Source of the DNA: Mesotaenium endlicherianum
Taxonomy: Eukaryota
Direction: 5' to 3'
Length of the DNA stretch: 64,000 nt
Assembly (NCBI GenBank): GCA_009602735.1
Contig: WELA01001079.1
Coordinates: 1 to 64,000, forward strand
A model generated the notes under the pieces. That model had not been told where the DNA came from. It made no database searches and was given only the letters and a program-made list of their open reading frames with translations. The number at the start of each line of letters is the position of its first letter. Position 1 is the first letter of the stretch. Shown here one piece after another: positions 1,862 to 36,195 of the stretch. A program made the position numbers and the translations under genes.

Positions 1862-2374
1862 TGTAGTGATTTGAGTTATTATATATTAGTTTGCCTATAT
1901 TTTAATNCTTTTTTTTGATGTTTTCAAATATATTTGGAGTAGTTTTGTGTGGAGTCAAGTGTGACTAGGTACTCTTGTAACTTGGTTCATGTCCTTTGAA
2001 CCTTCCAAGGCATTTTCGAAGTTAGAGGAAAGACCTAGAAGAACTCCATGTGGCAAAAGTCAAATGTGCATTTTTAGGTCAAAAAGACGTGTACATTATT
2101 CTAGAAAGAGGTGGCAAATTTTGGGATGTGTTGGGTGCCAACACATCAACATACATTTTCCTAGAAATTACTTATGTAGCAAGTATATAAACAAGAGCTA
2201 GAACATAGAAAGACATTCCAGAATCACTCTTGTACTTGCCAAAATCCAGAAATATATTAACTTTCAAGAAGCCATCTCTCTTTCAAGAAGCTACCACTTG
2301 TGTTCAAAGATCCTTGTCTTGAATAGATAAAGTATTCTGTTTTACTAAGTACTTTATCTATCTGTTTCACTACA
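1862..2374 (+). repeat. 3' LTR of the family-1 Gypsy (513 bp)
   Basis: Inverted termini TGTAGTGA...TCACTACA; preceded by PPT cgggggggtga (1851-1861); an inverted homolog lies at 44729-45100 plus 56489-56611. Confidence 0.9.
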
Positions 2375-2989
2375 ATCTAGATCAAGAGGGACAGTGAGGC
2401 GACAACAAAGGGTGGATTTAGAGTGGAGAGGGGGTTCACGCACGTAGAGGAGGATGTGGGGGGAGAAAGAATGGAGCAAAGATTGCTTACTACGAATGTA
2501 AGTCCTGGAGAGCAAAGGGATGAGCAAGTCCTAGTGACCAACGTCATGGGCCAGACGAAACTTACAAAGGCTGCGCTTCAGTGTCTGAACCACACGTTCC
2601 GCTAACCCGTCTGGGGGTGATCACGCAAGGTTGTTCGATGGTTGATAAAAGAACGTTCAAGTATGTTAAATAACTCACCTTGAAATTTGGATACTTGGTC
2701 GGTCAAGACCCCCGCGCGTCAAACGGCACAAGACCAGTTCGGTAAAGGCTGAAGCAATGTGCATATTAGGCTTGTCCCCTAGGTTTAGAAAGTTGATCTA
2801 TTTAGTGAAGGATTTTATCATATCAACAACATAACAAAACCCACGCTTTGAGAGAGGAAGAGGGACTGCCAGATCCTTAAACCAACAATAGAACGTATCG
2901 CGGATAGGGAGTGGCTAGGGCTGCCCTCCAAAGGGGGGCACGTCGCCCCCTACGGGAAAAACAATAGGTCGGTAGAAGGTGTAGCGATA

Positions 2990-5900
2990 CAACCGGTACG
3001 CACGCAATCACAAATGAAGCATGTGCCCCCCACTGATAGTGCTCACTACGATCCAGTATACGGTCACGTTCATGAGTCACAAGGTACGGGTCCAGGCAGG
3101 AGAGTGCAAGAGCGGAGATAGTGGAGGCGAGAGCATCATGCCAGACATCAGACTGAGAAGGAGGAGGTTCAGATGGTACAATGGTGAGTGCCGGGAGGGG
3201 TAGAGAGACCCAAGAAGTTAGAGGCGTGCCATGCAGGAAGCAGCCGTTCTTGCTGCTGTGAGGCGTCACGAGCACAACCAGGGTCTAGGTTGAAAGGGTC
3301 GTGATTGCGACTAAGCCCATCAACATCTTGGTGCAAGAGCTCGACTTTATGCTTTATCGTGAAATTATACTCCACCAAAATTAATGCCCAGCGGGCGTGT
3401 TTACCAATGAGACGCTGGTTTGTCATAAGCCAGCGCAGGGGTTGATGATCAGCGATGAGAGTGAAGGGAGTATCGTCAAGATAATGTCAAAAGTGCACAA
3501 CCCCCCAGACAGCCGCGAGACACTCACCTTTGTAGGAGCTGAAGTTGCGTTCTGCTGCGATGTTGCTATGACGTGTTCGTGATTGTCATCATCACCTTGC
3601 TCAAGCACCGCACCCAGCCCAAGGTGGCTCCAGTGGGTGTGGAGAACAAAGGGTCGAGCTAGATCAGGCCGACACAAGATGGGAGCTGACGCTATTGTGC
3701 CCGTTAAGCGCTCGAAGGCTCTCTGACAGTCGGGTGTCCATTTCCAACTGACTTCTTTCTCTAACAGGGCATTTAGGGGTGCGGTTGCTGCGCTAAACTC
3801 GGGTAAAATTTACTGACAATAACCTGTCATGCCCATAAATGCGCGCAGCCGTGTGACATCCTACAAAATCGGCAAATGTTGGATTGCATCTACGTTGACC
3901 TGCTGAGGGGTGAGACCTCCTGGTACGATAAAATGACCTAGGTAGGCAACAAAAAGGGTGGCTATTTAAGTCCCCAGTAATCCCACACATGCGTTTTTCT
4001 GTATGATTCCCACTTGTGTCCTTTTTAGCAGGCATAACAATGGGAGCTGCAAAATCGGACATCGACTCCTTCATCATATCAGCCTTTGATAAGTCGGTAA
4101 CCTTCTCACGAATAATGTCATGTCTAACTTCAGCGTGCCGATAAATCCCTCAAAAGTACCGATTTTGTGTTAGTGAGATCGATGGTACATTGAGACATCG
4201 TACACCTTCCTAAATCCATATCTGACCGTGCAAAACAAGCTTTCTTCCGTTTCAGCACTTTATTGAATTCTAGAGTTTCCTCCTTAGTCAACTGAGTACC
4301 TAGGTACCACCGATCCTTCAGTTTGGATACAAAAGTATCAGATGAGGGGTCTGAGCACTACAATTGCTATGCAGGTGTTACAAATTCGGAAGAACCCCCC
4401 CCCCCCCAGCGAAAAGCATGCAACGGATAGGCTGGAATGTGGAGGAATGGGTCAGATCGCCGAGCATTGAGGACGAAGAGGACAAAGAAAAGCCATGTGA
4501 GAGCATGAGTATCTATGACCCGACCGAGGAGTTGGCACCGCTGAGAAGCAGATAAGGAGGGAGAGGCAGTAGCATGTGGATTAACACTATAATGAGCTTG
4601 CGTTTGGACGCGAAAGGCTCAACGTACTGGTGGGTATGGGAATCAAACAACATGCCAAGTCCATAGTGACATTATGCAAAAGAATGGGGACGGCTGACGA
4701 GAGTGGGAAAAGCGGCTCGGGGATGTTCTGAGAAGAGTGACTCGGAGGAATGACTTCCATGGGACAACGGTGAGGGGCCAGTGCGGAGATAACGGCGATG
4801 CGAGGGGGATGCAAGTGTATGTGGTGAAGCATAGGCTCAAGTGTAGTGTGAGGCACAAGGTTTTCCCAGAACACTCGCGAACAATGGGCGTATGATCCAA
4901 CAGCGGCGATGTCGAGGTTAACGTCAGGCCCCAGGGTGGAGGTGATGGTGAGGAAGTCAGCAGGGATGTGAGCACGATCATCATCCGGGGAGTTTTTGTT
5001 TTTGAGCAGGTAGGTAAGCAAAGAGAACTAGGAGGTCTGGAGGAGACCTAAGACACGGATAAGCTCTAAAAATAGTCCGGATCGATGAATAGCAAACCCC
5101 TTGCCACGACCTGCGCGAGAATGACCCTGACACTCCCAGCCGTCGACGACAAGATTGACTTGACCTATGGCATGCAAGTGATCCTGCAGGAGGAGACAAA
5201 TATGCTGAGGCAACGCGGGATAGGCTGTGTGATATGCGGATGGAGGAAGCAATGTGGGAAAGGCAAGGTGAAAAGCCGCCAGGTGTCTTTGAGTTGCCAG
5301 CTGTGCAACGAGGTCGACATTACAATAATGGTAGTGTGCAATACAATGTCCACTCTGCAGGAAACCAGCAACGGTAGAGAAGACCCCCACAAACAAGTCT
5401 AACATTGTGATCCCCTCATGGGGAGGCAGCCGCGGACTGAGTTGAGTTAACAATCGGGAGAGAGGGTATGAGAGGTAAAGGGGAAGGAACGGAGGGGGAG
5501 ACCTTAGGAGAAAGGGAGGGATTGTGTAGGGCTGCGTGGATTTGCAAAAGGGTTGCAGAAGGGATAGTGCGGGATTGGAACGGGGAGGGTAGGTCTGTTT
5601 GAGCACAATATGCAGGAAGAGAATAAGGTTCAGTGTCGTGAAGGAGGTAGGAGGGATAGGGGAAATCACTGATGCAAAAATCATTGATGGTACTTGTGAA
5701 AGCGGCGGCCACGGGGCATGCGAGAAAAGAAAGAGTATGTGTAAGAATGAGGGGAAGAAAATCCAGATGGTGACCGAGAGATTTGAATTCAACCCAATAC
5801 GTAGCGATGCCTTGCCATAAGTGAATGGTAAGCTCGATGAGTAAGTTGAATTCCTGATCCAAAATGATATTGTAAGCGGTGGACTTGAAGACCATGCATT

Positions 5901-7830
5901 GGGCATAGAAGGTGACAATGGTAGGCGTGTGGGCATTGAGAGTGATAGGAATACAACGAAGGATCTGGTATGCGGTGTGGTTTAAGAACGACATGGCAGT
6001 AGAGACGGGGTCCAGGCAAAGCTCGAGATCGGCTGCGGTGATGTTAAGGTGTCGACACATGACTGCACCCAAGAGGACCGGCTGAGCATTCTTATCGAGA
6101 ATGACCACACGTGGAGCGAGACCCGTAATGAGGAGACAGGCATATTGGTTGTCAAGCATGACGTTATGAGGCAATGCATGCTGCCGTTTAAGAGGGGTGA
6201 GGAACAAGGGATGCGGGATTGACTTGGGTGGCAGCGGACCTAGCTATGGAGAAGGGGTGAAAGAAGGAGCAACAGGGGACAACCTACCTGGCAGCAACGT
6301 CGAGGCTGGCGATGGAGAAGACCTCGCAAGGTAGGCGACCAGAGGGGGCGCCGATGGACAAATTATAGAGACTGCCGAAAACATGTGAGGAGCTGGTACT
6401 GGTGGGACGATGGAGCGCGGACGCCAGCGAAGGAGCTCGTGCGTGATCTATTTTTGTGCCTGTGTGAGAGCACCGGAAGACATTGTGAACAAGGATGGAG
6501 GGAGCAAGGCACCGACTTGTAGGTGAGAAGCAGGCGGGAGAATGAACAGTGCTGGACGGGGATTAACGGAAGTCGGAGCCGGGGCCGTAAGAGCTGGGCG
6601 AGGCAGGAGCTAGCCAGGATCACTTGAAATAGGGAAATCGACTGACCCCTGCGGTGAAGAAGGGAGGAACTCCTTAGCACGCCGAGCATAGGTGACCTGA
6701 CCAATGCAAGAGGTAACAGTGTAAGGCAAATGCTCAGGAATCGACTCCAATAATTCCTCGGCAGGGCTTGGAAACACTTCGGCATCATCGCGAACGGCAG
6801 GCACGGACGTAGAGATCGCCGGGGTAGGGAATGCCAAAACTTCGTCCGTCTCCCCACCACCAACGCTGTAGGGTGGGGGCGTGTGTAGGCACGGGTCGAC
6901 GTTGTCGGACGCGTAGGCTAGGAGGTGGAGGCAAATCCGCCACCACTTGGCATACAAAGTGGGCCGCAGCAAATCGCGCTCGACAAAAGCCGTTGCCGCG
7001 CAGGTTGTCACACATCAGCTGGGCCTGCAGCTGCGCTGCGGGGACGTCGTCGGGAAGGATGACCAAGGTACCTGCATCACTAGAGCAAGCTAACGCATCC
7101 CAAACTAGGCTACCGGGCGTGAGCAGGTCCTAAAGTATCGTCTGGCTCAAGAAGGTCGAACCACCGCGGAAGTTGGGCAGATTGCTCAACACTTCGCCCG
7201 CGGACCCACAACTGGTGCGGCAGGTGCCTCATGGGCAGCCACACGGCGACTGTGAACAGCGTGGACACCTACGACGTGATCACTGTTCTCCTTCTCAGTC
7301 ACATAATATGCGCCGAATGGAGGTCTGGAGAACCAAGAGATATAGGCAGAACCAAGCTCACGTGGCGGAATGGGGTGCAAACCAAAAAACTAAGCAGCAA
7401 CAGGATTAGGCTGCAACCCAGCGCGACGGTGAATGTCCTGCATCTCAGCTTGCATTGCAGCCAATTGGTGACGCATGAAGACCACCTGAGATGTGAGAGT
7501 TAGAGTTAGGGTAAGGGTTAGGAATACGGATAGACTTAGGGTTACGCTTAGGGTTAGATTAAGTTTCGAGTTAAGGTTAGGAACCCCAGCCTGATATGCA
7601 CATTGGAATGGACCAAAAATTGATGGATCGGGAGAAGGATATCCCGCAAAGCTGCTATGCTGAGGTGGGAATCCCGTGGCACCAAGATAGAAACCCGCAA
7701 ATGTAGAAGGTAAGGAAGCATAATAAGATGGCACCTGCGCTGTCTGGGTAGCACTAGGGGTGACAAAAGGGCCCGTGTCCTTTTTGGGCTTGAAGGTCCA
7801 GCCAGTAGGAGCCAGATGTGGATGCAAGAG
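2990..7830 (-). mobile_element. Decayed Ty3/Gypsy element A: gag - protease - C5 DNA methyltransferase - RT (core deleted) - RNase H; integrase missing
   Basis: Degenerate protease VILDKNAQPVLLG (~6080-6110); MTase motifs; RT SDFAAPIVMPAKKD...EKRMCG then YLGH...RLRAFMGMTGY; RNase H RPDLARPFVLHTHWSHLGLGAVL and GKHARWALILVEYNFTIKH...DGLSR. Confidence 0.85.
4490..5415 (-). pseudogene. C5 cytosine DNA methyltransferase domain inside the element-A polyprotein (frameshifted)
   Basis: Motif I ITMLDLFVG; motif IV VDGWECQGHSRAG; motif VI-like AYLLKN; motif VIII AVGSYAHCSRVFWENL; TRD FPTLVS...GLGMLFD; motif IX EPFASKR; motif X QRCQLLGRVIDTHALTW (read across frames). Confidence 0.85.
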
Positions 7831-16068: not shown

Positions 16069-19000
16069 TGTAGAAAATAAGCAGTCCTAGCTCTAATTGC
16101 TTAGCATGTGCTTTCACATGTGTGGAGGTTGACTGAAGTTTGTGGTCGGTCGAGGCCGACTAATGTTGGCTGAGAGTGTCGATGTGTAGGGCTTCTGATG
16201 ACTAGGACTGTCGATTAGTTCAAGGTAGGTTAGCAGCCGCAAAAGTGAATATAGAAGGGCAGAGAAACTTGTAAGGGACACACTTGAGTAAGAAAGAGTT
16301 GAGCCCCCGAGAAAGAGAGTGCTCCTCTTGATGTCGTGTGCATGCTTATATGTGTTGTGTATGAGCTGCAAGTGAAGTATTTGTCTTGCTATAGAACGAG
16401 TAAGCAATGACAGATGAAGATTTTCAACATGGTATCGGAGCAGGTTCTAACTCTCGGCTCCCGCACTTCGATGGGAAGGGTACTGAGTATCTTGTGTGGT
16501 CGCGAAGAGTGTGTGCACAGTTAGCCAGACATGATCTCAAGGAGATAGTGCTTGGAAATGAAAAAATCCCAGATCCACTCGAAGTGCCCGCTGCAAATGC
16601 TGATGCAGCAACCAGAGAAGCGTATGTTGCGAATGGAGCAGCTAGAGTTGCATGGCGAAAGAGGGAGGCACATGCATTTGATTTGCTTACAAAGAGCTTG
16701 GGTCAGGAGACCTACATGAGAGTGCTGAATTTAGAGACCAGCACAGCGATGTGGGAGTCGTTGAAGAACCTGCACCAGCAGTATAGTGTTGCTAACAAAG
16801 GCACCTTTAAGAAGAAGTTTGCTCTGTTGAAGCAAGAAGAGGGAGAGAGCGTGCAGTCCTACTTCTCCCGCATCAGAGAAGTGTGTGAGGAATTAAAAGC
16901 CTTGGATGCCGAGGTGAATCAAGAAGATCAGGTGATTCAAGCTCTAAATGGATTGGATTCAAAGTTTGAGACCTTCAGAGACTCCTTCTCAGTGCTGACA
17001 ACTGCTAAACTCACCATGGAAAACATTGATTCCAAGTTGCTCATTAAGGAGGTTCAGTTGGAGACCAAAGAAAAGGCAAGCTCATCCACTGAACAGGCTC
17101 TACTCATGTTTGGAGACAGGAAGTTTCGTCTGGTGGGCAATGAGCTAGTGGAGCAGATGGAAGAGCTTAGCGTGGCCAGTTCCAGTCGGCAAGGAGAAGG
17201 ATGGGGAGAAAGGAGGTCAGGATCTCATAGAGGAGGCTATCAAGGCAAAGGAGGTGGAAGCAAGAAAGGGAGATGCTTCATTTGTGGGAAGACAGGACAT
17301 TCTGCACCAAGCTGCGAGGATGCAGTGTGCTTCACGTGCAACAAGAAGGAATATCTGGCCCGGGATTGCAGCCAGAAGAGAGAAGGTACTTCCCTTCACG
17401 ATGCTGAAGAAAATGCCAATGCTGTTACTATAGAGGAGTCACTGGTGTGCAGCGAGCAGGATGAGGATGCCTGGTTTGTTGACTNATTTGTTGACTCCGG
17501 AGCTGCAAGACATGCCACTCCCAGGAGAGAGATCATGCTCGACTACAAGTCCTGCAGTGCACTGCCAGTCAGAGTTGGTGATGGCATGCTGCTGCAAGGG
17601 ATTGGAACTGGAAAGGTGGTAGTCATGACACAGCTAGGCAAGAGGAGGCACAAGTTTACGATGCAGGATGTGCTTCACTGTCTGGGACTAGTGAAGAATC
17701 TGTTTTCAGTGCCAAAGACCACAGCCCTTGGAAACACAGTGGCTTTTGAAGGAAGTGAGTGTCGAGTCATGGAATCGGACAGTGATGTGGTAATGAAGGC
17801 TGTGAAGTCAAGTGTTCAAGGCAGCTTGTTTAAAATCCAGTGCCAAACTGAGATTGCTCTATCTGTAATGGACCAAATTCTTCAGGTTGAGTTTGCACTT
17901 GGTGCACAGGGAGGTGCCAAGCTGGAGAGTGACATCAACCTGTGGCACCAGAGGCTGGGACATGTGAGTGAGCAGAGATTGAAGCAGATGGCACAAGACA
18001 AGGAGAGAGGGCTGCCAAAATTTACAGGGCAGAGTTTAGAATTTTGCAGGGGATATCAGATGGGGAAGCAGGCCAGGAAGGCACTCCCAAAGGGAGAAGC
18101 TTCAAGGGCTAGTGAGCTGCTGGGGTTGGTTCACTCAGATGTGAGGGGACCTGCTAGTGTAACAACCAGATCGTCAAGAAACTTGTAGTACATCACCTTC
18201 ACAGATGACTACTCCAGGAAGACTGAGGTGTATTTCATGAGAACCAAGGATCAGGCGTATGAAAAGTCCTTGAAGTACAAGGCATCCGTGGAGAAGCAGT
18301 TGGGAAAGAAGATCAAGACCCTGAGGATTGATAGTGGGTCTGAGTATGTCAACGGCTACTTTGACAAGTTTCTGTGGGACGAAGGAATCAAGCATGAGCT
18401 GACTATCACTTACTCTCTTCAGCAGAATAGAGTTGCTGAGAGGAAGAACAGGACTTTGTGGAGGCTGCAAGAGCGATGATCTTTGCGTCTGGTTCATCTT
18501 TGAGTCATGGCTCATCTAGACACTCAAGAAGAGAGAGTGTGCTACCTGCTAGATTTGGCTTTGATGAGTATGTAAGTGTGGCTGAGTTGATGGCTGAGGA
18601 GGATGCTGTAGAGAGTGAGGTGGTCTACATGGTAGGTGACTCAGAGCCCAAGACCTTTGAGGCTGCTATGCGAACAGAGGAAGCAGCTAAGTGGAGAAAG
18701 GCTTCTGAGGAAGAGATAGAGTCACTGGCAAAGAATGAGACATGGGACCTGGCAGAGCTGCCACCTGGTAAGAAGGTTTTGGGAGGCAGGTGGATCTACA
18801 GGAAGAAGAGGAAGGCAGATGGATCAGTGGACAGATACAAGGCGCGGTTTGTGGCAAAGGGCTACTCCCAGACAGAGGGAGAAGACTATCATGAGACTTT
18901 TGCACCAGTTGCCAAGATTGCCACAGTGAGAGTCGTGACGCAAATTGCCGCAGTGGAGGATATGGAGATGCATCAGATGGACGTGAAGACTGCATTTCTG

Positions 19001-20509
19001 TATGGAGAGCTGGAGGAGGAGGTCTACATAGAGCAGCCAGAGGGATTCATTGATGAGAAGTTCCCGAAGAAGATGTGCAAGCTGAAGAAGTCCCTGTATG
19101 GACAGAAGCAGTCTCCAAGAATGTGGAACCAGAAGATAGACTCCTTTCTTCATGGTGAGGGATTTGTGAAGTCCAATGCTGACAGCAGTTTGTATATGAA
19201 GGGAGCAGGTGATGACAGGGTGATGCTGGTACTATATGTTGATGACCTGCTGCTCGTTGGCAAGAAGATGGTGGAGGTGCAGAAGGTGAAGGATGCCCTG
19301 AGTCGTGCCTTCGATATGAAGGACTTGGGAGAGGTACAGTTCCTGCTTGGCATTCAGGTGAAGAGAGATAGGGCCAAGAGGATTGTAATGCTGGGTCAGC
19401 CAGCCTACTTGCAGACAGTGCTGGAGAGGTTTGATATGATGGGCTGTAAGCCTGTCAGTGTGCCCCTTGATCCTAAGCACAAGCTGAGCTCGAGTATGTG
19501 TGCTAAGGATGAGCATGAGTGGGAGATGATGTCTCAGGTGCCCATGAGGAAGGTTGCAGGTAGTATCATGTATCTGATGGTGTGCACACGTCTTGATTTT
19601 GCTAACGCAGTCGGGATAGTGAGTCAGTTCATGGAGAATCCAGGCCTTGCACACTGGGAGGCTATGAAGAGGATCCTGAGATATCTCAAGGGGAGACCAA
19701 ACCTGTGGTTGCACCTTGGCGGAAGTAACAGTGTGAGGCTAGAAGGGTGCAGTGATGCTGACTGGGGAGGAGACATAGACACTCGGAAGTCTACAACAGG
19801 CTATGCATTCTCTCTGGCTAAGGGTGCTGTGACCTGGAAGAGCAAGAGACAAAAGGTGGTGGCCTTGTCGTCCATGGAGGCAGAGTATATGGCAGCCTCA
19901 CAGGCAGTGAGAGAGGCAGTGTGGCTGAGAAGACTTTTGGAGGACCTGGGTTATGAGCAGAAGAGGCCCACTGTTATTTTGAGTGATAGTCAGAGCTGCA
20001 TTGCATTAGGGAAGAACCTTGTTGAGCATGCTAGGAGTAAACATATAGATATTCAATACCATAAGTGCAGGGAGTGTGTGCTTGATGGTAGTGTAGAGTT
20101 CAAGTTTGTTAGAACTGATAAGATGGTGGCTGATGCCTTGACAAAGGCTATTCCCAGATTATAGCACCGATGGTGTGCTGAGATGCTAGGAACTAAAAGA
20201 GATAGTGAGCAGATAGATTAGAACTGAGAGAGAGTGTAGAAAATAAGCAGTCCTAGCTCTAATTGCTTAGCATGTGCGTTCACATGTGTGGAGGTTGACT
20301 GAAGTTTGTGGTCGGTCGAGTCCAGCTAATGTTGGCCGAGAGTGTCGATGTGTAGGGCTTCTGATGACTAGGATTGTCGATTAGTTCAAGGTAGGTTAGT
20401 GCTCCTCTTGGTGTCGTGTGCATGCTTATATGTGTTGTGTATGAGCTGCAAGTGAAGTATTTGTCTTGCTGTAGAACGAGTAAGCAATGACAGATGAAGA
20501 TTTTCAACA
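16069..20509 (+). mobile_element. Ty1/Copia LTR retrotransposon, structurally complete but defective
   Basis: LTRs 16069-16429 and 20235-20509 (TG...CA); 5-bp TSD gctgc at 16064-16068 and 20510-20514; PBS tggtatcggagc 16430-16441; PPT gagagagag 20226-20234. Confidence 0.97.
16407..20164 (+). pseudogene. Copia gag-pol (gag with CCHC knuckles, protease, GAG-pre-integrase, integrase, RT, RNase H); frameshifted, integrase C-terminus deleted
   Basis: CFICGKTGHSAPSC; FVDSGAARH; LWHQRLGH; VHSDV; QNRVAERKNRTL; QMDVKTAFL; LYVDDLL; SDADWGG; RSKHIDIQYH. Confidence 0.95.
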
Positions 20510-20686: not shown

Positions 20687-21436
20687 ACTCTGATACAATT
20701 GAAATGAATTGCCTCACCAATAGACAATTAACATTTAATAGAGATCTTTATATCAGCAAGTAATCTGTATGGTATTTTCTATCGACTGATTACACCGCAA
20801 AAGACAACACACTAGCAGTGAATAATACTCGCAAGTCAAATGCAAGTAAACTAGCATCAATTATGGAATAAGTAAACTCATACATAAGCAAGGCTAGAAG
20901 ATCGTGCGTATCAATGGCTTCTCGCCTTGGATTCAGATATCTCTCAGTAAGGAGTACAAGAGAGTTGGCCTCGTTTTCGAATGCCAAACTTGAGACCAAT
21001 ACCTAGGATATGTACAAGGAATAAGTTTATCGTTCAACGGCAAGTGCGATGGCACCGCCTACCCGGGAGCTAACCACGTTGTTAAGACCTCGGCTAACCA
21101 AATTTACAGCCATCTTTCATCATCCCGAATTGCCATCCACCTTAAAGGTGTCATGTGGCAACTCATTTAGCATGCACACTACACTTAGAAGTATAGCTAG
21201 GCAGTTCGCTGCTGCCGAGTACAACAGCCATTTGATTGTCAAAAAATGTGTCAGCAAGCTGACACAAGTCAACAAGCTAACCAATTGGACTTTAGCTTGC
21301 TACTCTCGGCTGAGTCCTTTAACTAAGTATCAAGTATCCAGCAGACTAATTATTAACTGTAGTTCAGGAGACTGAACTTGTTTAACTATTGTATGTTACT
21401 AGATATTATATCCATCCAATATATTGATTCATTACA
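20687..21436 (-). repeat. Probable 5' LTR (20700-21436) and degenerate Met PBS of an old LTR element whose gag start (MVRTRSQ...) was hit by the Copia
   Basis: Termini TGTAATGAATC...ATTCATTTCA on the minus strand followed by ttgtatcagag; gag-like N-terminus at 20510-20666 continues at 15800-16068 across the Copia TSD. Confidence 0.55.
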
Positions 21437-22585
21437 CTGGCCCAAGAGACACACGCGGTTGACCTCGCAGATACCGTCCACCTGCGTGAGGTGTGGAGGG
21501 AAGCCTATTGCACGCTCTATCTCTACGGCACCAGGCCGCTGGAACATGCCAATTTCGAGGTCAATATACATGCTGCGCTGGTCCCCCACGTGGGCCGCGC
21601 TGTCGTAGTGACTCACGAATGTTGGAAGCGCCCTCGTGACATAGTGGAGGACCTAACACTGATTTTGGGAAGGATGTGGAAAAGCGACCACCCGCTGGGC
21701 CAGGCGCGTCACATCGAGGATAGAGTTGACGTTGCGCGCGTGGCGCGGATGTGCGGTTGCCAAGGCCTCGAGCATGCCTGGCATGGCCAAGATGGTGAAG
21801 TAGGCACGCACGCAGTGCGCGAAGAAGTTAATCTGGGTAGCGTGGATGACGTCAAACGGCCAACGTAGCTGTTGCAGAGCTCGAAGTTGGTGCGCACGTT
21901 GGGCCGAGAATTATGGCGGACAGCCGTGTTCTCCATAACCCAGGCGAGCGTGTGCGGCAATTGGCGGTCCTCAACCATGTTGAAGACGCGGAGTAGATGC
22001 CAGAATAAGGCCGTACGCGGGTCATCGAGCGCACCTCCTTGCCCAGCGATGGAGAATCCCTGGCACTCCCAGCCAGCCAGCAATGATGAGGTCAAGTGAC
22101 CCAAGTCGTGTGATGAGCTCGGCGGCGGTGTCCCGGATGTCCATAGACCAGTCGGTCTGGGCACGGTGGAATGCGTGCGCAGTGAAGAGGTCAGTGAAAT
22201 GCTTGTGGCACAAGGACATGTGCCGGCAGACCACCTGCTGCGCCTCGGCATCAGGGTCCAGGTAGACGTACTGACGTACAGGAATGCTAGCTTGCAAGGT
22301 GGCGAGCAGCTCTGTCGCAATGCCGACAAAGAGCCTGTCAAGGACAATGCCAACAAGATGCTCGTCGAGTTGGTCGAAGTAGATAGGCGTAGGGAGGGGA
22401 CGACAGCGCATGGCGGGAACGCTTACCTGCGTAGGAGGAGGATAGATGCGGAGGACACCATGCTGATGGGGCGCTATGCAAAGGGCCGCCACAACGCGCT
22501 CGACACAGTCACAAGTAAGCCTTGGGAATGCGCTCGAATTGCAAGGAGAAGGCCTGGCATCCTTTACATCAGGGACCTGAGGCAT
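21437..22585 (-). pseudogene. Isolated C5 cytosine DNA methyltransferase fragment, probably Gypsy-derived and frameshifted
   Basis: Motif I GIVLDRLFVGIAT; DIRD; motif IV LIIAGWECQGFSIAG; DPRTALF; motif VI WVMENT; motif VIII FAHCVRAYFTIL; motif IX PGAVEIERAIGFP; motif X RVCLLGQ cut by the LTR at 21436; GC-rich island. Confidence 0.85.
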
Positions 22586-24628: not shown

Positions 24629-27600
24629 AGGCATGGCTGGCACCAATTCCTCGAGCTCAGTCTTAACTGACGATCGATATTTGGCAAATGGCACAGCGAA
24701 CAATTTTGTACGTGATCTCTCATGGTCTTACCATCAGAAACTTCCAGTTCCAACACACCATTGTCGAACGCATGTTTCACGTGTAAGATTATTGCACCTG
24801 AACTGGTGTCAATGGTGGTCTTAGTCTGGCGCTTGCGGTAGACGAAGTCTCCTTCCAAGATCTGCGTCATTTGCAGGCGGTAGCTCCCATCTCGCGTCCT
24901 GGCGTAACGCTGCGTGTCTCTTTTCTTTGCAATTTTCAGATTGTCCAGGGCAGCAGGCATCATGTGCTCAAATAACACCTTGCGGCGCAACATGACCTTT
25001 AACAGTTCATCAGGGTTGTCCAGATCTTTCACCTGCTCATCTCCTGCTTGATGCTGCAGGGCACAATTGGACTTCTTCCCAACAGAATCTGATAAGGCGA
25101 GTAATTTGCCAAAGAAGCTTGCTTGCTAAATCTGTAACCCATAACCAGCCATGGCAGGGCCAGATCCCAATCACGCTTATCATGCTCAAGGCAAAATTTG
25201 CGCAAAGCAAACTTAATGGTTTACACCATCCGTTCTGCCCGACCATCTGCTTGTGGGTGGTCTCTAGACGTAGTGCGCTCGTCAATGAAGCATTTAACCA
25301 GGAGGTTCTGAAAAGATCCTTAGAACTCAGACCCTTGGTCTGTCAACACTTCTGCTGGGGCTCCATGACGTACAATCACACCATTGAGGAGCGCTCTTGC
25401 GGTCCCCAAGCTTTCCTTAGCGGTTAGAGGTACCACCTCTATCTACTTAGAAAAATGCTCAATCATGACCATAATGTACTTGTTACCTCGCTTGGACAGC
25501 GGTAACTCACCTGCGAGATCGCAGCTCCACCGATAGCCTAGGCCCATGATTAGCAGTGGTTGCACGTGTAGGTGTTGCTGCGTAAAACCAGCCTTGACGC
25601 GATCGCAACTTGTACAGGCCTTGATCACATCCTCACATTGCTGCTTCATGCCCCTCCACCAGTAAGACAGCTCCAGAAGATTGTATGTCTTCTTGACACC
25701 ATAGTGTCCATTTATTATGATGCATTTCCTGCACCAGAGCTCGTCTTTTGGTGGATTCTGGCACTAACTTTTCCTGACCAGTTTCTTCAATCTTGAAGAG
25801 GTTATTGCGTTTCCAGCAAAACCTTTTAGCTCGATGACCTACCTGGTCCTTTTCTTTTGCCGATAATCCTTCCATATGGACCTTCGTCTTCAACCAATGC
25901 ATAGTGGCTTGATCTTTCCAGATGTCTGAACTGAACAAAGGTAGGGGCTCAGCTTCTCCTGATGCTACCACTCTAGCCATTTAAGCCAGGCAGGCGGCCA
26001 ATTCTGTGGGGCTGCTCAAATCTTCGTCTTCTCGAGCTCCTAACCTGTCGTGTGCGGATGGGTCCGGGTTCCTGCTGAGTCCATCAGCGTCGTTGTTGAG
26101 TATACCTGCTCGGTGTATCACCGTCATCTGGTACTCCTGGAATTTGAGAGCCCAACAAGCCAGTTTACCAGTGAGGTCTCCATTCTTCATCAGCCAGAAT
26201 AATGGCGAATGATTTGTGATCAACGTGAAGGGTCTACCCCATAGATACTCTCTGAAATATGCAATAGCCCAAACCACTGCCAGTAGCTCTCCTTTGTAGG
26301 ACAAGTAGTTGCTCTCCGCTCAGTTGTTAGAGCGCGAGGCATAGGCAATGACGTACTTCTCTCTAGGAATTTCCAACACTGCAGGTGTCCTAGGAGCTGA
26401 ACTGTCCTTCTCCCATGTTCCAGTGGATGAGGGATGCACCATGGGAATGTGAATTCCCAAAGTCATGGCTTTGCGAATTACGCCATCCTCTCCCTCTCTC
26501 TGCAAAATCTCTGGGATAGGTTGTGGAGGAGGAGCCGTGGTTCCTTTCGGAACCCCTTCTCTCTGAGCTGTTCCCCTGTACTTCAAGTAACGCATCAGCA
26601 TCCGCCTGAAAGGTGCATTGCCTTCCCGGGCAACCTTTCTTGGTCTGCTTGCGCGACCGTGAGGATTTCCTTGTGTTGGTTCCACCTTAGCGATGCAGGC
26701 AGCCACTTCCTGCGGTTGTTGTAGCTAATGTGGGGTAGCTTCTGGTGCTGGCAAACTGGTGGTTGGAGTGCTGGATGTAGGCGACCTTAGATCGTTGTGA
26801 AGATCGGCCGAGCTGGGTCCTTCTATCACCAATTGGTCGTTCACCCAGTCATCCGTTCTGAGTTCTTCTAGCTCCTATAGATCCAGTTCAGGGGTAGGAA
26901 AACGTGGAATTGCTTCCTAAGTGTCCTTTTCAATGGTGACTGACGGCAGGTCGAACCCTGGAAGGTCTAGCATCTCTGCCTCATCTTCAACTGATTTCGC
27001 CGCTCCGGGTGGTGGCGTTTCTCCTTCATTATCTGTGTTGAGCTTTGCCAAGTTGACGATGGCTGATTGCAGAGCGCTTGCCGCCTTAGCCACTTTTCGT
27101 TCCTTGTGTTGTCGGGCGTCTGCGTCCAGAAGCTGCTCCATGATTTGCCTTGCAATGGATTCAGCAGTTTGACTGGCTGAACCCTGCTGTTGCCCCTTAG
27201 CTTGCGGCTCTAAGCTCATCAAGGCAGGTGTTGTAGACAGTGTCTTGTCCAACTCCTCCTGGCGTTCTTCGAATATTACTTCGAGGCATATGGTCTTTGC
27301 AGACCCTCCAAAATCTCCTGACTTCTGGCTACTCTCTTCGGCCCATTCACTAGAATTGCACTGCTGTTCTTGCCTTGGTACTTGGTTTAGGCAGTATCCA
27401 GTAGTTTCAACTGTAAGCTCAGGAGCCTTCTTCTCAGATTCTTCTGACATGTCTTGTAACGACGCTCGCTCTGGTGAAGACGATACACTTTTTGTTGGTT
27501 TCCCAGCTACTTGAGCTTTCCTGCCAACAGTCTCCGTGCCCAGCTGCCCTTAGGCTGAGGGGGGTATCACACACTGACCCGGCCTTTTCTGGGGTCTCTT

Positions 27601-28039
27601 GACGTCTTGATGTCGTTGTTCCGGGAGGTGAGCTCCCAAAAATCTTGCTGTAAGTGGCGTTTCTCACAGATAATGGGGTGCCATGCGTATCGTCCCCCAC
27701 TCCTGGTAGCGGTGCTGCTTGCTCAGGCGCTTGATCCCTCATGGGTGTATCCTCTCTTTCCAGAGGTGCTTGTAATTCATAGGTCCGATTATCAATCCGG
27801 TCCAATAGATCCTGACATCTCATGAGTGTTGCCATCCTATCTCCCCTCTATGCTCTGTCTACAGCGGCTTCCGCTGCGTCTCTTTGCACCCAGTATTCTT
27901 CTTGTTGCTGGTGTGCCATTCTGATAGCCCTCTGGTCAGATGTTGGCACCACATTGATCCCAATTGTTACTGGTCTTGGTCTCGGCATAGGCTTGTTGGT
28001 GAAGGTCAACTGTTGCCATGTCATGATTGTTTCCACCAA

Positions 28040-28995
28040 CCAAGTCATAGAGTGCTACCCGATCATGTTGCCAAAAACCTTTGCAGCCTCATCTGATCCT
28101 ACACCACCAGCCATATGCCGAGCTATGTTGTCGGGTATTCCAAGGCATTTGCCCTTTTCCACCGTGGTGGGCTCTTTCCACACGGCGTCTCTTTTATAAA
28201 TGTCTTTGACCATTCCTGGTCCACCTCCTCTGAAGGCTCGGGATCCTGGACATGTTGTGAAGGTAGGCAGTACCACTCTTGGCTGACCTGGTTCGTTGAT
28301 GACCCACTGTGGATAGGAATCCCTCCAGGTCACTGGTCTGGTATCCACCGCCAGTGCCTTTTACACTGTCAATGCTGTTGGTGAGCGTTGTGTAATGTCC
28401 TCCAATTCTCTCAGAACCTCGATAGACGTGCCGTTGGTCCAAAATATCCTGGCCCTATGAGACAATCCTTCGTGCTTGGCGTCGTTGATTAGCACATGAC
28501 GGCCCAAATTGGAGTCGAAAATCAGCCATTGTTCTCCCGACTTCATCTGCTTGTAGTCCATTCCTGGATGTACGTTCTCAATCACAAACACAGGTGGGTG
28601 ATAGTGCTGACGTTCCCGCAGTATGCTGATGATTTTCACCATCCATCCCCAGTGTTGTGCTCGTGGATCACTGAATTCCCTCTTGTTTCTAGCTTGAGCA
28701 AATGGTTGACAACGGAATCCAGCAAAGATCCAATCACTCCTGTAACCATACAGGTATTCAGGCTTCACGTATATAATGTTGCCTTCAGCAATGCACTCGA
28801 CATTGCTAGATACAAGCGCCAACCTTTGAAAATGATGCATTTGCCGCATCTGATTCATGACCTCTTGGAATGCTCGAAAAGTGTGGTCATTGTTGTCCAC
28901 ATACAGGACTTCGGCCACCTGTATTTCTCGCTGGATCAATGCTATGGTCCCACAGCCAAGTGCGGCAAATAATTCCAGCACCACCACTCCCCTTT
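28040..28995 (-). pseudogene. C5 cytosine DNA methyltransferase domain inside the element-B polyprotein
   Basis: In the 411-aa ORF 28361-29596, contiguous with the protease C-terminal half: motif I VVVLELFAALGCG; motif IV IFAGFRCQPF; motif VI FVIENV; motif VIII SHRARIFWTN. In ORF 28055-28348: motif IX EPTTVEKGKCLGIP and motif X KVFGNMI. Confidence 0.92.
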
Positions 28996-31900
28996 TGCGG
29001 AAAGGATCTTCCATCCTGACAATGCCTTGCGGCAGCGGCTCCACTCCAAGCATCGGATTTGGAGAGGAGGTAACTGGGTAGGGTACTAGCAGCAGCTCTT
29101 GCGGGCTGTGGTCCCTATTACTCACATTTTCTAGCTGCTTCATGATCCGGAATTGCCATACCAAGGGTGTTGGCATGTTGATGCTTGTATAGCCTTCCTC
29201 TTCTTGCTTCATGAGGTTGTCGCTGGCTTCTGGGTACGTGTCATTAAAGTAGCAGTCTAGCAGTCCGTAATTTGCTTCTCCTATGCAAACCATTTTCACA
29301 GGAATCTCTCCTGCCGGCTGTCTATCTGTTGACTGGTAAGTCACTCTCTGTTTCCGCAGATCAATGATCATACCCAAAGGAATCAATGTTTCTGTTCGAA
29401 AGAGAACATCATAGTTCTCAGCTTCCGTCACTGTGCACTCCATGAATTGTGACGCCTCTTTAGGTTCCCCTGGATTTACTATGATTTTCACAAGCTTGCG
29501 GGTAATCCCACAAGATTTTGAGACTTGTCCTGAGGCAGTTCTCGATTGAAAAGGACTCTCTTTCAGGTCCCTTGTCGTCAAACCTAGAGCTTTCACAGCA
29601 CGTTCCCCAAAATGACTGGCTGTGCGCCTGTATCCAACAGGATGTTGGGAGCTGCCCTGTTGTTGAAGATCAGTGCACCATCCTAATTTTGCACTCTTAC
29701 GGTGCTAAAATTGGTGGGCAATGAGGCGGTATTTGCACCTCAGCTATAACCATCTGATGTCCGGCCTCTTTAACCATGAATGGGTAGGTGATGTGCAAAT
29801 CAGCGAGAGAAAGCAAAGGAGCATGCTGGATCCGGTGTTCCACCAGAGCCTTCAGCTTCTCCAGTGAAAAACTCAATGTCTTGCGCGACCCGGGCCTGGT
29901 TTGTCGTAGCTGCGAGATCTCGTTTTCATCTAAAGTGATCCGGCAAGTGTGAGGAACCTTTCCCGCATTCCTTGGCACCAGACGGTTGTGATCTACTTGC
30001 TCGGCAGCTGTTGCATCCACAGCCTTTTCAGGCAACCGCTTCTCGCCTTTGCAGACGGTCTTTTCTGCAATGTCTGCATCATAATAGACATTAAGCGCAT
30101 TTAGATTTGCAAACTGTGCTTTCAACTCAACGATTTCTGCACTCATAGCTTCATACTTCTGGTTACCCTTGCGGTTACCTGAGCCACCCTTTTGTTTCTT
30201 TTTCTCTTTGTCTGCCTCTTTCGTGGCAGCATTTGCCCAGGGCGGCTTTAGATTTGGGTTCTTAGACCAACACTCATCTTCCGAGTGTCCCTTCTTACTG
30301 CAATGTGCGCATATCTACGCTTTGCTAGCGGATAGTTGCTTAGCATCTGGGTACAGGCAGTCTCTCTTGTGATACTCTGATTTCCCGCAATTCCAACAAC
30401 TCTCTGCTGTCTCAGCAGTGTTGGCGTGCTTAGCAAACTTATTGAAAGACCCGCTCTTTTACCCTAAACTGAAAATTAGAGCTGTTGGCCTTAGGCGAAG
30501 AGAATTCCTCTCTCCTCTTAGGAGCCATAAGCGTCCTGGAAGCCTCTTTATACCATACTTTACCTTCTTCGACATTTCGTGCTATTCAATCGCCTCGTCG
30601 ATATCCCAGTGAATCCCGTGTTTTGCGGACGGATGTGGCCTAACGTCACGATCTGTTTCCTTGCCGAAGCACAACAGAAACTTGTCAGCCACTATTCTGG
30701 GCTCGTATACTTTTGCCTTTTTGGCAAGGTCTACCAATCTGGATTTGACCTCCATGACTGTCTCGTTCTTCTGACGAACAAAATGTACATAACGGTGCAC
30801 CTTAAGACTGCGATCCTCAGGGAATCGTGCCTCAAGCAACTTGAAGAAACGACCCAGGCAATGCGTGGCGTCTAGCTGGTCATCCCCAGCCTCCATATCC
30901 TTACGACAGCTAGCCAAGGCTTGCGCATGGCTTGCCTCTCTCGTGGCGCTATCGCTTTGCTGCCCATTGAGAGGTGTAGCTCTGCGTGTTACTCGTTCCT
31001 GAGCTTTAGCAATCTTTTATGACAGTTCTGCACAGACCTTTTGCAATTCTGCGACAGAGCCGACATCATCATCTTGAGGGGCAGCCTTCCGCTGACCCTC
31101 AGTGAGTTGCCTCATGGCCTCTGTTAATTCTTGTCTTAGTGCAACTAAGTCTATGCTCTCAACAGGAGCAGTTGTCATTGTTCTTCTTGAAGATAAAGTG
31201 GACATTCGGGCTTTCGCAGCCTCTTTCTGGATTTTTAAATCCCTAGCCCTTTTCTGTTCTTCAAACGCCCATTTTTGGGTGAGGTCCTCGTCCTTCCGGA
31301 ATTGGCGATATTACAGCAGGGCATCCTTGTCCAAATACTGAACCAAGCCTATAAATGCGACAGATTGCGTATAAGAAGAATCCTTCCGAATCTTCTCAAA
31401 GAATTATGCTCAATAGATCTCATCAAACTCTTCGAAAGTGAGACCATTTCCGCTGGTTCGTCCAATAAAACACTTTGCAGACAGCTTGAACTTAGGATTT
31501 TCATCCCGTTCATCACCGGCCATTTCGAACGGTGAAGAGGACTCACTGACTCTTCCCCACACGTCTTGCTCTCTGCCCAAATCAGGTGTAAAGGCTCGTA
31601 TGTTATCTGGGTTCTCACCGTTTGCGGAGTTATAACAAGACTCGTCGCTCGACGTTTGCTCACTCCACCGGTTGTCAGTATGCACAGACGTCTTACTTTC
31701 TCGTGGACTCTGGCTAGAATCAGAACCTTCTGCAAGCTCCACAGAGTGGTAGAGTCTTCCACTCCTCAATTGCATATACAGTTGAATTTCTCCGGGTCCC
31801 TTTCCAGGTTGAACACCGGCACCCTTCACAGGCCTCAATCCCCAACTGACTTGGAAATGCTTGTTCACCTGAACCAATCAACCCAAGTTCTCAGAAGTAG

Positions 31901-33695: not shown

Positions 33696-36195
33696 ATGGC
33701 TGTTGACTACCAGTACGGCCACTTCAGATCAATGGTTCCCGAGAACCAGATTACAGTAGGGCCGTCTGAACAAAGGTCCTTATCCTGTCTTGAATAATAA
33801 TCGATTTCATTCCTTTGGATAACTTACTGATGGCATGGCAGGGCAGTCTCGCGGTTTTTCGCTGCGTGTAATTGAGCTTCGCGGCGTCCTCCCATCTGTC
33901 CTTTTATATATGATATTAATTGCAATAGAGTTACTTCTATGTGTTTTCGTCAGTGTTATCGAAGGTGATGACCTTTTTCGAGGGGTGGCCTGTTTAGGTC
34001 TTTCTTCCTGTGCTGGCCCCCAATTGCTTACTAAATTCGCGTTGGCTGGTAGATTGCAGATGGAGGTACTACGACCATGGGCCAAAGTCAGTGCCTCCTG
34101 TTATTTTTCTGGGAGGCGTGGGAGTGACAGCAGATGTGTTTTATAGGCAGCTCCTTACGTTGGCTGGCTGGGGCTACAGAGGCATTGCTGTAGATTATCC
34201 GGCGCTATGGACGCACAAGCAGTGGCTCACAGCATTTGATCATTATCTTGATGTCCTTCGCCTGCACCAGGTCAGTGCTGACATTACATCATGTCTCGCT
34301 GTTCCAGTGCCCTGATAGATGATGCCCTGACCGAGCATTAAGTATATGGCTGGTATTTTAATTGGGGGTACAGGTGGATAGCGTTAGAATTCAATGTACG
34401 ACTTGGGTGTGATTGACGTCTTTCCCAAATTGATTTCGTGTTGTGCTCCGATGAGGCGCATTTTAAACCATTGAGATTTGAAATTAAGAATTGCCAATAA
34501 GTTGGCAGCTTAGCAAATGGCAGGTTTTGTTCAGGAACATCAACCTCACACAAGCAGGAGGGATATTACGGATGCTGATTGAAAAGTGCAGTGGTGCAAA
34601 AAATGAGTTACTTCTAGTGCGAGGTCGTAACTGAGGGGTGAGCAGGTGCACCTGTATGGAATGTCACTGGGAGGCTTTCTAGCTCAGCTGTATTGCCAGC
34701 ACAGGCCACGCAGGGTGCTGTCCGTGGTGCTGTCTAATACGTTCCTGGATACGCGCTTCTTCTTCCAGTCTTCTGGTGTCTGGTCAAAGGTGTAAGTTGC
34801 CTGCTTGCAGAGTCTATTTTCAGCTTTTTTTAAGTTTACTGCAGGTGCGAGTTCTCTATTGGTCAATAATGAGGTAAGGGCTTGCTATCCTGGCGTGCTC
34901 TGGATTGTAACGCTGCCTATTGGGATAAGCTCCTGGCACAGGTATATATGCCTTTGCTGTCTTGTGTCGAGGGTACACATGTTGGACGTTGGTGTGTCAG
35001 CTCCTGCTCATATACCTCAACTTAATTGGGTGACAGGTTTGCCTGGGCTCCGGATTTTGTGCTGAAGAGGCTTGTGCTGTCAGGGCTGCATCAGGGCCCC
35101 CACGAGGCCCTCACGGCTGAATCAATTGACTTTGTAGTGGCACACCTGGACAAGCTTGGACGTGCTGAGCTGGCAGCTCGCCTCTCTCTCAAGACCGAGG
35201 TTGCAGCCGTGGGGCGTCTGACCCTTTCAGATGTAAAGATTACAGTGATGGACAGCCTGGACTGTGTTTCAGTTCCACCTGCGCTCAAAGATGCTGTCTT
35301 CGAGCGCTACCCAAACGCAAGGCGTGCCACACTCAAGTCCGGCGGCGAGTTTCCTTCTCTGTGTAGGGCTGACGAGGTGGGCCTGCATCTAGTGCTGCAT
35401 TTGCGCCACGTGCATGCTGCACGCGTTGCTTGTGCTCCAGATGTTTTGGCTGACATGCAACTAAGGGACGTGCAAAAAGGCAGCCCATCTTCACATTGGG
35501 ATGGCAGGGGTGGAGGAGCAGCAGGACAAGGAGGGACAGTAGAAGGCAAACAGGAGCAATCAGAGATCAGCGACAAATGCATTTGCGAAAGGGAAAGGGG
35601 AGGCGGCGATTGGCATGCTTTGGCGCACCATGAAAGGCCTGCAGGTGACAGAGGCGGAGTCGCGGCAATGCTTCAGGGAAGGCACGAGAGCATCAGCAAT
35701 AGCATCAAGACAAGCACTTCCTCTGAATGTTCAAGTTTGCGAGCTGGGTGCAGACGGAAGCTGCTTATGGACGGTCGCAGCGCGAAGGGGTGGGCGGAGG
35801 ACGCCAGCCACTTGCAAGATTGGGCTGACGCTGACCATCCTCTGTCGTCCGTAACAGGAGGTGCTATTGCTGGCGTTAAGATTGTGACTCCGAACGACCT
35901 GTTGCAGGTCACCCAAAATGTAATGCACAAGACTACGGAGAACATAGACTTGAACAACAACGGGCGCACGTCATACCGGGGGGTAGAGGATGAGAAAGGT
36001 GAGGGCGAGAAGCTTTCAGGTAGCACAAGGAATTTAGGGGGTCCTGCGGATATCGGCAGGAGTCATGTACCAGGGGGGGATAAGAACAGAGGCAGAGGCT
36101 TGCTGGCCTGCGACAAGAAGCACCAGCAGTATCAGGAAAGGAATGTGGACAGGTACCGGAAGAGCAATCCAGTTGTTTGGCTTCCATCCTCTTAA
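33696..36195 (+). CDS. SPG21: Maspardin (SPG21/ACP33)-like alpha/beta hydrolase-fold protein; exons 33696-33775, 34060-34270, 34646-34791, 35037-36195; 531 aa predicted
   Basis: YGHFRSMVP...WRYYDHGPKSVPPVIFLGGVGVTADVFYRQ...VHLYGMSLGGFLAQ...WAPDFVLKR...LKSGGEFPSLCRADEVGLHLVLHLR; all three introns GT-AG with consistent phases; 1596 nt in frame. Confidence 0.9.

What the first reader, a model, noticed from the sequence alone, without database searches (positions are those of the whole stretch)
4490..5415. A second, divergent MTase-bearing Gypsy with the same PR-MTase junction, followed by RT
Seen: element A has motifs I to X between the protease and RT, with motif IV GWECQG. I saw no obvious nucleotide similarity to element B, but both share a (DTG)AQPVxLG-type protease and similar RNase H and post-RH segments. 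This copy shows the order PR-MTase-RT-RH that element B has lost. Inference: the capture is ancient and has been retained across diverged families.
Basis: partly seen in the sequence, partly recalled or inferred. Interest (0 to 1): 0.75.

Follow-up and report, generated by a model that had tools for sequence, protein, structure and literature searches.

The report
Gypsy retrotransposon carrying DNMT3-like methyltransferase
This is a broken copy of a jumping gene that carries its own DNMT3-like DNA methyltransferase between its protease and reverse transcriptase, a kind already known from one alga, and several relatives place a likely leaky stop codon right after the methyltransferase, which would make it far more abundant than the copying enzymes.

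Summary
Element A (minus strand, about 7500 to 2375) is a decayed Ty3/Gypsy copy with the order PR-MTase-RT-RH-IN. The MTase is DNMT3-like by profile and fold, but has two stops, two frameshifts and two substituted catalytic residues; the RT lacks about 130 core codons; no RNA reads cover it. Relatives with the same slot occur in Klebsormidium, Mesostigma and Closterium, so this is the KnitGypsy-Dnmt3 kind (2018). Intact relatives keep the MTase under purifying selection (dN/dS 0.10-0.12). A larger group, including Haematococcus elements, has the MTase between RH and IN; Pol and MTase trees both separate the two groups. Whether A and B share one capture is unresolved. Unexpected: five of eight related loci have an in-frame TAG-CAR-YYA (TMV-type leaky stop) between MTase and RT, and A has TAG-CAA-TTG at the matching place. 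That would give an abundant Gag-PR-MTase protein and readthrough RT-RH-IN. A's nearest Pol relative lacks the stop, and readthrough is untested. The scan has seen PR-MTase-RT Gypsy elements before on other DNA. Verdict: new variant of a known kind.

The parts
6133..7500 (-). Decayed region upstream of the protease, probably the end of gag; no zinc knuckle or capsid match, so the 5' end and LTR are lost
   Evidence: No Pfam match in three frames; no tblastn match to the gag of relatives; assignment is inference
5743..6132 (-). Aspartic protease, catalytic triad decayed in this copy
   Evidence: Protease profile 46.5 bits, E 2e-14; translation
4740..5414 (-). DNMT3-like C5 methyltransferase, motifs I-VIII; motif IV GWECQG; stop at 5030; motif VI and VIII residues substituted
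   Evidence: model pLDDT 87, best folds DNMT3A/3B
4591..4728 (-). Methyltransferase, second piece after a frameshift; stop at 4674
   Evidence: Profile positions 242-287, E 1.7e-06
4487..4579 (-). Methyltransferase motif X piece after a second frameshift; same frame as the pre-RT segment
   Evidence: Profile positions 292-322, E 1.3e-04; frame check
4361..4369 (-). Candidate leaky stop TAG-CAA-TTG, first in-frame stop after the MTase
   Evidence: same place and context as TAG-CAR-YYA in L001, L002, L003, L005, L009
3961..4312 (-). Pre-RT segment and N-terminal part of RT; about 130 codons of the RT core are missing after 3962
   Evidence: sibling contigs run on with other sequence at 3982
3271..3962 (-). 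RT thumb and RNase H, with stops and one frameshift near 3564
2375..2914 (-). Integrase core, broken, cut off by the LTR at 1862-2374
1862..2374 (+). LTR (TG...CA, preceded by a purine tract) of another, very high-copy element that bounds A at its 3' side
24664..31877 (-). Element B: gag with zinc knuckles, PR (29655-29327), MTase (28990-28034, GFRCQP), no RT, C-terminal RH (26361-26032), IN
21428..22351 (-). Third, isolated MTase copy (C) of the same family, GWECQG, frameshifted, no PR or RT beside it

Best explanation
Element A is a broken, truncated Ty3/Gypsy retrotransposon copy with a DNMT3-like cytosine methyltransferase between protease and reverse transcriptase; in active relatives the enzyme is likely made at the end of an abundant Gag-protease protein and would likely methylate the element's own new DNA copy. 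Shown: domain order, DNMT3-like fold, decay of this copy, sibling copies in the genome, purifying selection and a conserved TAG-CAR-YYA after the MTase in several relatives. Inferred: (1) ribosomes mostly stop after Gag-PR-MTase and sometimes read through to RT-RH-IN-PHD (about 0.85 for L001/L003/L005, about 0.65 for A's own family); (2) the protease frees the MTase inside the virus-like particle, where it is in excess over RT; (3) it methylates cytosines, probably CG, in the cDNA before or at integration, so the new insertion arrives marked like host chromatin (about 0.5; the model of de Mendoza et al. 2018); (4) the module was captured early in streptophyte algae or before and inherited mostly with Pol (about 0.65). 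The identity of the element alone is about 0.95.
For: Order and significance. DNMT3 class: family profile hits DNMT3A E 2.6e-13 and DNMT3B 3.5e-11 ahead of HaeIII 1e-07, DRM 1.9e-07, HhaI 1.4e-06; model of A's first 226 residues gives Foldseek DNMT3A E 7.8e-10 and VIA-align Z 16.8 to DNMT3B (rmsd 3.5, 196 aligned) against 13.0 for the best non-DNMT3 chain. Slot shared: 40 of 283 relatives are PR-slot, 39 of them with motif IV ending CQG as in A; 176 of 185 RH-IN-slot relatives end CQD; A's 10 best hits are all PR-slot. Selection: MTase dN/dS 0.124, 0.122, 0.103, 0.103 in the 4 of 8 pairs not saturated, like PR (0.11-0.13) and below the linkers (0.28-0.58). Trees: the RH-IN group is one side of a branch for Pol (96/99) and, with L007, for MTase (100/100); A and B lie outside it; Mantel r 0.75 over 33 rows. 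Leaky stop: TAG-CAR-YYA is the first stop after the MTase in 5 of 8 loci; background 18 of 9064 stops, and 45 of 9064 for A's looser form; 11 further proteins end 102 residues after the MTase at the matching place and 4, including K. nitens GAQ93235.1, end 13 residues after it. CAR-YYA directs readthrough in plants, 20-32% in reporters (PMC2754532).
Against: No activity was measured; the K. nitens enzyme gave no methylation in yeast, a result its authors call inconclusive. A and B show no extra CpG loss (o/e 0.77, 0.61) against non-MTase elements in the window (0.60, 0.64, 0.26). A's stop context has G at the sixth place and A has many decay stops; 20 of 39 PR-slot proteins run from MTase into RT without a stop, including P0271, A's nearest Pol relative, and the published K. 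nitens element is described with the MTase in the RT ORF. The five matching loci are about two independent lineages. L007 has the PR slot but its MTase groups with the other slot, and AU tests resolve nothing. Host DNMT3 genes and MTase-less sister elements were not in the trees, so a single capture is not shown.
Confidence: 0.6

Rival explanations
1. The MTase module was captured or swapped several times. A, B and the RH-IN-slot elements hold related DNMT3-like domains taken from host genes or from each other, not one inherited capture.
For: Two slots exist. B's MTase is only 25-30% identical to any relative while its Pol is 52-54% identical to PR-slot elements. L007 joins the other slot's MTases in the best tree. 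Independent captures and shuffled orders are published for SymbioDIRS-Dnmt3.
Against: MTase and Pol distances correlate within the PR slot (r 0.78, p 0.001) and several sub-clades recur in both trees. A tree with L007 outside the RH-IN group is not rejected, nor is A+B as a clade.
Confidence: 0.3
2. The MTase is conserved for a job other than marking the cDNA, such as methylating host loci or the element's own promoter to limit its activity, or binding nucleic acid in the particle.
For: No CpG depletion beyond other elements. No activity of the K. nitens domain in yeast. The 2018 paper itself lists self-limitation as a possibility.
Against: Catalytic cysteine, ENV-type glutamate and HRxR arginines are at least 90% conserved in 33 PR-slot relatives. 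Its place in the protease-processed polyprotein would put it in the particle with the cDNA (inference).
Confidence: 0.3
3. A's TAG at 4369 is an ordinary decay stop and A's family had one open Gag-Pol frame, as in P0268, P0270 and P0271.
For: A has 2 stops in the MTase and many downstream. Its nearest Pol relative has no stop. The DNA flanks do not align with the loci that have the signal.
Against: Chance of a CAR-YYR context is 45 of 9064. The stop lies 23 codons before the conserved G-x-x-L-T of the pre-RT segment, against 22-29 in five relatives (counted).
Confidence: 0.3
4. The MTase is a host gene fragment or nested insertion that lies between PR and RT by accident.
For: PR and MTase are in different frames in this copy. 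An isolated MTase copy exists at 21.4-22.4 kb.
Against: Intact relatives have the same order and spacing in one frame. Sibling contigs cover PR, MTase and RT start alike. No introns interrupt the profile match.
Confidence: 0.02

Closest known systems
KnitGypsy-Dnmt3 of Klebsormidium nitens (de Mendoza et al. 2018, PMC5890265; abstract, introduction, results, discussion read; Fig. 4c and main supplement not seen)
   Same: Ty3/Gypsy element with an intronless, unrearranged DNMT3-like domain in the polyprotein, under purifying selection. A K. nitens protein (GAQ93235.1) has the PR-MTase order and matches A's MTase at 31%, E 2e-26.
   Different: Different, diverged family in another genome; this copy is dead. 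The paper puts the MTase in the RT ORF and mentions no leaky stop, no wider distribution and no second slot. Its DIRS-like repeat layout could not be checked in A. That GAQ93235.1 is a KnitGypsy-Dnmt3 copy is my inference.
SymbioDIRS-Dnmt3 (same paper)
   Same: DNMT3 domain inside a retroelement Pol, two domain orders, shown to methylate CG de novo in yeast.
   Different: DIRS class with tyrosine recombinase, in dinoflagellates; A has a DDE integrase and Gypsy RT/RH.
EpiLTRs and DAM-LTRs (bioRxiv 10.64898/2026.05.21.726589; parts 1-3 of 5 read)
   Same: Gypsy elements carrying DNA methyltransferases.
   Different: Their DNMT is sister to DNMT4 and comes with a Dam domain and chromodomain; the preprint calls it distinct from streptophyte Gypsy-DNMT3. 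No Dam or chromo match was seen in A; relatives end in a PHD finger.
Stop-codon readthrough: TMV UAG-CAR-YYA (PMC2754532, PMC4132726; passages) and retroelements with in-frame stops such as MuLV, SIRE1, Tca2 (PMC2194720; passages)
   Same: One in-frame amber codon with the CAR-YYA context sets the ratio of an upstream to an extended protein.
   Different: Here the stop falls after Gag-PR-MTase and before RT, not at gag/pol or pol/env; predicted only.

Membership tests
Ty3/Gypsy LTR retrotransposon | Order PR-RT-RH-IN | tested here: met
Ty3/Gypsy LTR retrotransposon | RT/RH most like Ty3 | tested here: met
   Relative P0001 hits Ty3 Gag-Pol first, E 5e-76; A's RT/RH pieces match that family's profiles
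Ty3/Gypsy LTR retrotransposon | Own LTR pair, PBS, PPT, target-site duplication | tested here: inconclusive
   No repeat pair for A; both ends are cut off
C5 cytosine methyltransferase | Motifs I, IV, VI, VIII, IX, X in order and the MTase fold | tested here: met
C5 cytosine methyltransferase | Intact catalytic residues and open frame in this copy | tested here: not met
   Cysteine kept; motif VI glutamate and a motif VIII arginine substituted; 39 of 52 conserved sites kept; stops and frameshifts. Met in intact relatives.
DNMT3 family | Closest to DNMT3A/3B among solved MTases, motifs not permuted as in DRM | tested here: met
DNMT3 family | Nested among host DNMT3 genes in a phylogeny | not tested
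KnitGypsy-Dnmt3 kind | Intronless DNMT3-like domain within a Gypsy polyprotein region | tested here: met
KnitGypsy-Dnmt3 kind | Purifying selection on the MTase (Ka/Ks under 0.2) | tested here: met
   0.10-0.12 in relatives L001, L002, L003, L008; not measured among copies of this genome
KnitGypsy-Dnmt3 kind | MTase in the same ORF as RT | tested here: inconclusive
   Same frame in A but a stop between; open in 20 of 39 PR-slot proteins, stopped in others
KnitGypsy-Dnmt3 kind | DIRS-like layout of terminal repeats | not testable with these tools
   A lacks both ends; no whole genome held; L001 and L003 show no terminal repeats within their contigs
EpiLTR | Dam domain plus DNMT4-sister DNMT plus chromodomain | tested here: not met
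   No Dam or chromo Pfam match in A; MTase is DNMT3-like
TMV-type readthrough signal | In-frame UAG followed by CAR-YYA with coding frame beyond | tested here: inconclusive
   Exact in 5 of 8 loci; five of six bases in A
TMV-type readthrough signal | Measured readthrough | not testable with these tools
   Needs a reporter or proteomics

The most novel reading that the evidence does not exclude
Green-lineage Gypsy elements treat DNMT3 as structural cargo: one capture older than the chlorophyte-streptophyte split gave a lineage of hundreds of families; chlorophyte-type elements moved the enzyme to the RH-IN slot, while many streptophyte elements, A's family among them, put it in front of a TMV-type leaky amber codon so that each particle packs several times more methyltransferase than RT or integrase and delivers pre-methylated cDNA.
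Probability: 0.3. Interest if true: 0.72.

Novelty: new variant of a known kind. Interest (0 to 1): 0.5.

Why it matters
Why a transposon carries a silencing enzyme is an open question since 2018. The data here widen the kind from one alga to a large green-lineage group with two domain orders, and the leaky stop gives a direct, testable prediction: methyltransferase in excess over RT in particles, and methylated cDNA. Intact relatives supply enzymes to assay, where the first yeast test was inconclusive. The copy in this window is itself dead and adds only a further host and family.

Tried and rejected
No whole genome was held, so copies could not be aligned and dN/dS within this genome was not computed. 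No RNA holder listed in the run search. RNA runs X6 and X9 laid 0 reads and are flagged as no test. phmmer of A's MTase alone on the PDB gave only E 0.8 hits. The Atlas search with a host gene did not place the host lineage; with P0125 it gave generic C5 MTase clusters. Viral contigs gave 30 distant, partial MTases and no close donor; 71 of 80 metagenome loci were weak MTase matches with no retroelement domain. The mixture-model careful tree did not finish; its quick tree is quoted. Four AU tests rejected nothing. Four of eight MTase pairs were saturated for dS. No clear structure 3' of the stop (z -0.7 to -2.7). DNA flanks of the stop did not align. CpG depletion gave no sign of self-methylation. 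Rejected: EpiLTR membership, accidental nesting, an active copy. Rows left out of trees: P0280 (probable deletion derivative), near-copies P0258/P0129-type duplicates, P0259, P0261, P0262, P0272, P0204, most RH-IN-slot proteins (14-30 of 185 used) and most slot-unknown proteins. Ten literature searches found no paper on the RH-IN slot or on readthrough after the MTase; Iyer et al. 2011 and Havecker and Voytas 2003 were not held, and Fig. 4c and the main supplement of PMC5890265 could not be seen and may show the domain order.

Full report
Setting. The window is a transposon-dense eukaryotic region (GC about 0.46) with nested LTR elements and one intron-bearing host gene. No whole genome is held. 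The host lineage was not determined; the named relatives point to a streptophyte alga or non-seed plant, which is inference.

Observation. A profile from 120 relatives matches 5414-4487 on the minus strand in three frames at 147.5, 20.4 and 14.1 bits; 200 shuffles reached 2.2 bits at most. The protease lies upstream at 6132-5743 and RT, RH and IN pieces follow. The order PR-MTase-RT-RH-IN is real. A and B share no blastn match, and their RH pieces are 52% identical. B has no RT.

State of the copy. The MTase has stops at 5030 and 4674 and two frameshifts. It keeps the catalytic cysteine but not the motif VI glutamate or the first motif VIII arginine; 39 of 52 conserved sites are kept. The protease triad is decayed. 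About 128-130 codons of RT core are missing; sibling contigs run on at 3982 with sequence that A lacks (3 and 5 contigs), so the deletion appears private to A. Gag, both LTRs and the end of IN are absent; a foreign LTR at 1862-2374 cuts the integrase. The locus has single-copy depth of about 55, while 183 and 210 contigs at 80% likeness or more lie on 3900-5450, the long ones 16-19% different: there is a family of older siblings, number not measurable. Of 19 listed A-versus-sibling sites in the first MTase piece (from 40 rows shown of 261), 15 are non-synonymous, as expected for neutral decay. Three RNA runs of the same species label gave no reads over 4391-5425 though they covered the flanking LTRs; they come from other samples.

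Class of enzyme. The family profile ranks DNMT3A (E 2.6e-13) and DNMT3B (3.5e-11) above HaeIII, DRM and HhaI. A model of A's first 226 residues (pLDDT 87, driven by the alignment) matches DNMT3A at E 7.8e-10 and DNMT3B at Z 16.8, rmsd 3.5 over 196 residues, against 13.0 for the best bacterial enzyme. B's model also ranks DNMT3B first. Placement among host DNMT3 genes was not tested.

Relatives and two slots. The first search reached a large group: all 120 listed proteins have the MTase after RH and/or before IN, none before RT; the species named is Haematococcus lacustris. A profile of the window's own MTases found 3429 representatives at E 0.001 or better, the best of them PR-slot. Over 283 proteins, 185 are RH-IN slot, 40 PR slot, 57 unknown, 1 without MTase; motif IV ends CQG in 39 of 40 PR-slot and CQD in 176 of 185 RH-IN-slot proteins. 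PR-slot names include Mesostigma viride, Closterium spp. and K. nitens GAQ93235.1. A's ten best hits are all PR slot (32-38%); B's are mixed (3 PR, 6 RH-IN, 1 unknown; 25-30%). Seven of nine retroelement loci from metagenomes show the PR slot and two are uninformative.

Trees. With 61 and 41 rows the MTase tree splits the slots (SH-aLRT 97, 99) with A, B and C on the PR side. With 33-35 rows the RH-IN group is supported for Pol (96/99) and, with L007 inside, for MTase (100/100); Mantel r is 0.75 overall, 0.78 among 13 PR-slot rows, 0.46 among 18 RH-IN rows. A, B and L007 are long branches, and AU tests reject none of four alternative placements (p 0.48-0.57). So inheritance with Pol is broadly supported, while one capture for A and B, and the direction of the slot move, are open.

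Selection. Among intact relatives the MTase has dN/dS 0.124 (0.06-0.21), 0.122 (0.08-0.17), 0.103 and 0.103; PR 0.11-0.13, RT/RH/IN 0.04-0.10, linkers 0.28-0.58; four of eight pairs were saturated, and the usable pairs share sequences.

A leaky stop. The first in-frame stop after the MTase is TAG-CAR-YYA in L001, L002, L003, L005 and L009, TAG-TAG-CCA in decayed L006, absent in L007 and off the contig in L004. Background is 18 of 9064 stops. L003 has one 1369-codon Gag-PR-MTase frame, the stop, then RT-RH-IN-PHD in the same frame. Eleven proteins of another group end 102 residues after the MTase at the matching place, and four, including the K. nitens one, end 13 residues after it; their DNA context is unknown. 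A has TAG-CAA-TTG at 4369, in the frame shared by motif X and the pre-RT segment (looser form: 45 of 9064). CAR-YYA is the TMV readthrough signal (passages of PMC2754532 and PMC4132726), and in-frame stops are known in MuLV, SIRE1 and Tca2 (PMC2194720). Against: 20 of 39 PR-slot proteins run through without a stop, including A's nearest Pol relative, though some are gene models that may splice round a stop; the matching loci are about two independent lineages.

Mechanism. Best reading: active members make Gag-PR-MTase in bulk and RT-RH-IN-PHD by readthrough or in one frame; the protease frees the MTase in the particle; it methylates the cDNA so the insertion arrives marked like host chromatin. 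Processing, packaging and target are inferred from general LTR-element biology (recalled) and from de Mendoza et al., where the dinoflagellate enzymes methylated CG in yeast and the K. nitens one did not. CpG content gives no support.

Comparison and novelty. It works like KnitGypsy-Dnmt3 and meets the tested features of that kind; repeat layout could not be tested and the single-ORF feature is inconclusive. It is not an EpiLTR. PMC12344493 (section 5 and passages) only repeats the 2018 report; PMC6317226 (passages) names no such domain. Ten searches found no account of the wider distribution, the RH-IN slot or the stop after the MTase; unseen figures, supplements and unheld papers may bear on this. 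Other papers seen as passages only and not used as support: PMC6453930, PMC4738411, 10.1101/2022.06.16.496473. Earlier scan notes report PR-MTase-RT Gypsy elements in other genomes. Verdict: new variant of a known kind, interest 0.5.

Noticed in passing
window 21428-22351 (-): Third MTase of the same family (GWECQG), frameshifted, with no PR or RT next to it; sits between a Copia element and AT-rich DNA. Groups with PR-slot MTases.
   Followed up: partly
window 28034-28990 (-): Element B's MTase keeps the catalytic C, EN and HRxR residues but only 29 of 55 family-conserved sites, and its branch is three times longer than its Pol branch: fast evolution or a different source.
   Followed up: partly
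window 26361-28034 (-): In B about 1.7 kb of acidic, partly open, non-RT sequence replaces RT and the first half of RH; origin unexplained.
   Followed up: no
window 7500-7585 (+): Degenerate TTAGGG-like repeats at the point where element A's 5' part ends.
   Followed up: no
window 1862-2374: LTR with summed contig depth of several hundred thousand against about 55 for single-copy DNA, and RNA reads in three runs: a very abundant, transcribed family; another copy at 44729-45100.
   Followed up: partly
window 16069-20509 (+): Near-intact Copia element with 96-98% identical terminal repeats and strong CpG depletion (o/e 0.26).
   Followed up: no
window 34046-36195 (+): Intron-bearing alpha/beta-hydrolase gene resembling maspardin (name recalled), with a long low-complexity C-terminal extension.
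   Followed up: partly
L007 3365-8753: GC-rich element with PR, a TAG followed by GGG, then MTase-RT-RH-IN-PHD in one frame: a possible leaky stop before the MTase instead of after it; its Pol is an outlier.
   Followed up: partly
P0001-P0120 (no window coordinates): Large group of Gypsy polyproteins with RT-RH-MTase-IN-PHD, named from Haematococcus lacustris; not found described in the searches made.
   Followed up: partly
window 37922-40064 and 51266-53570: Two copies of a 2-kb unit, 90-98% identical, with short ORFs of no assigned family.
   Followed up: no
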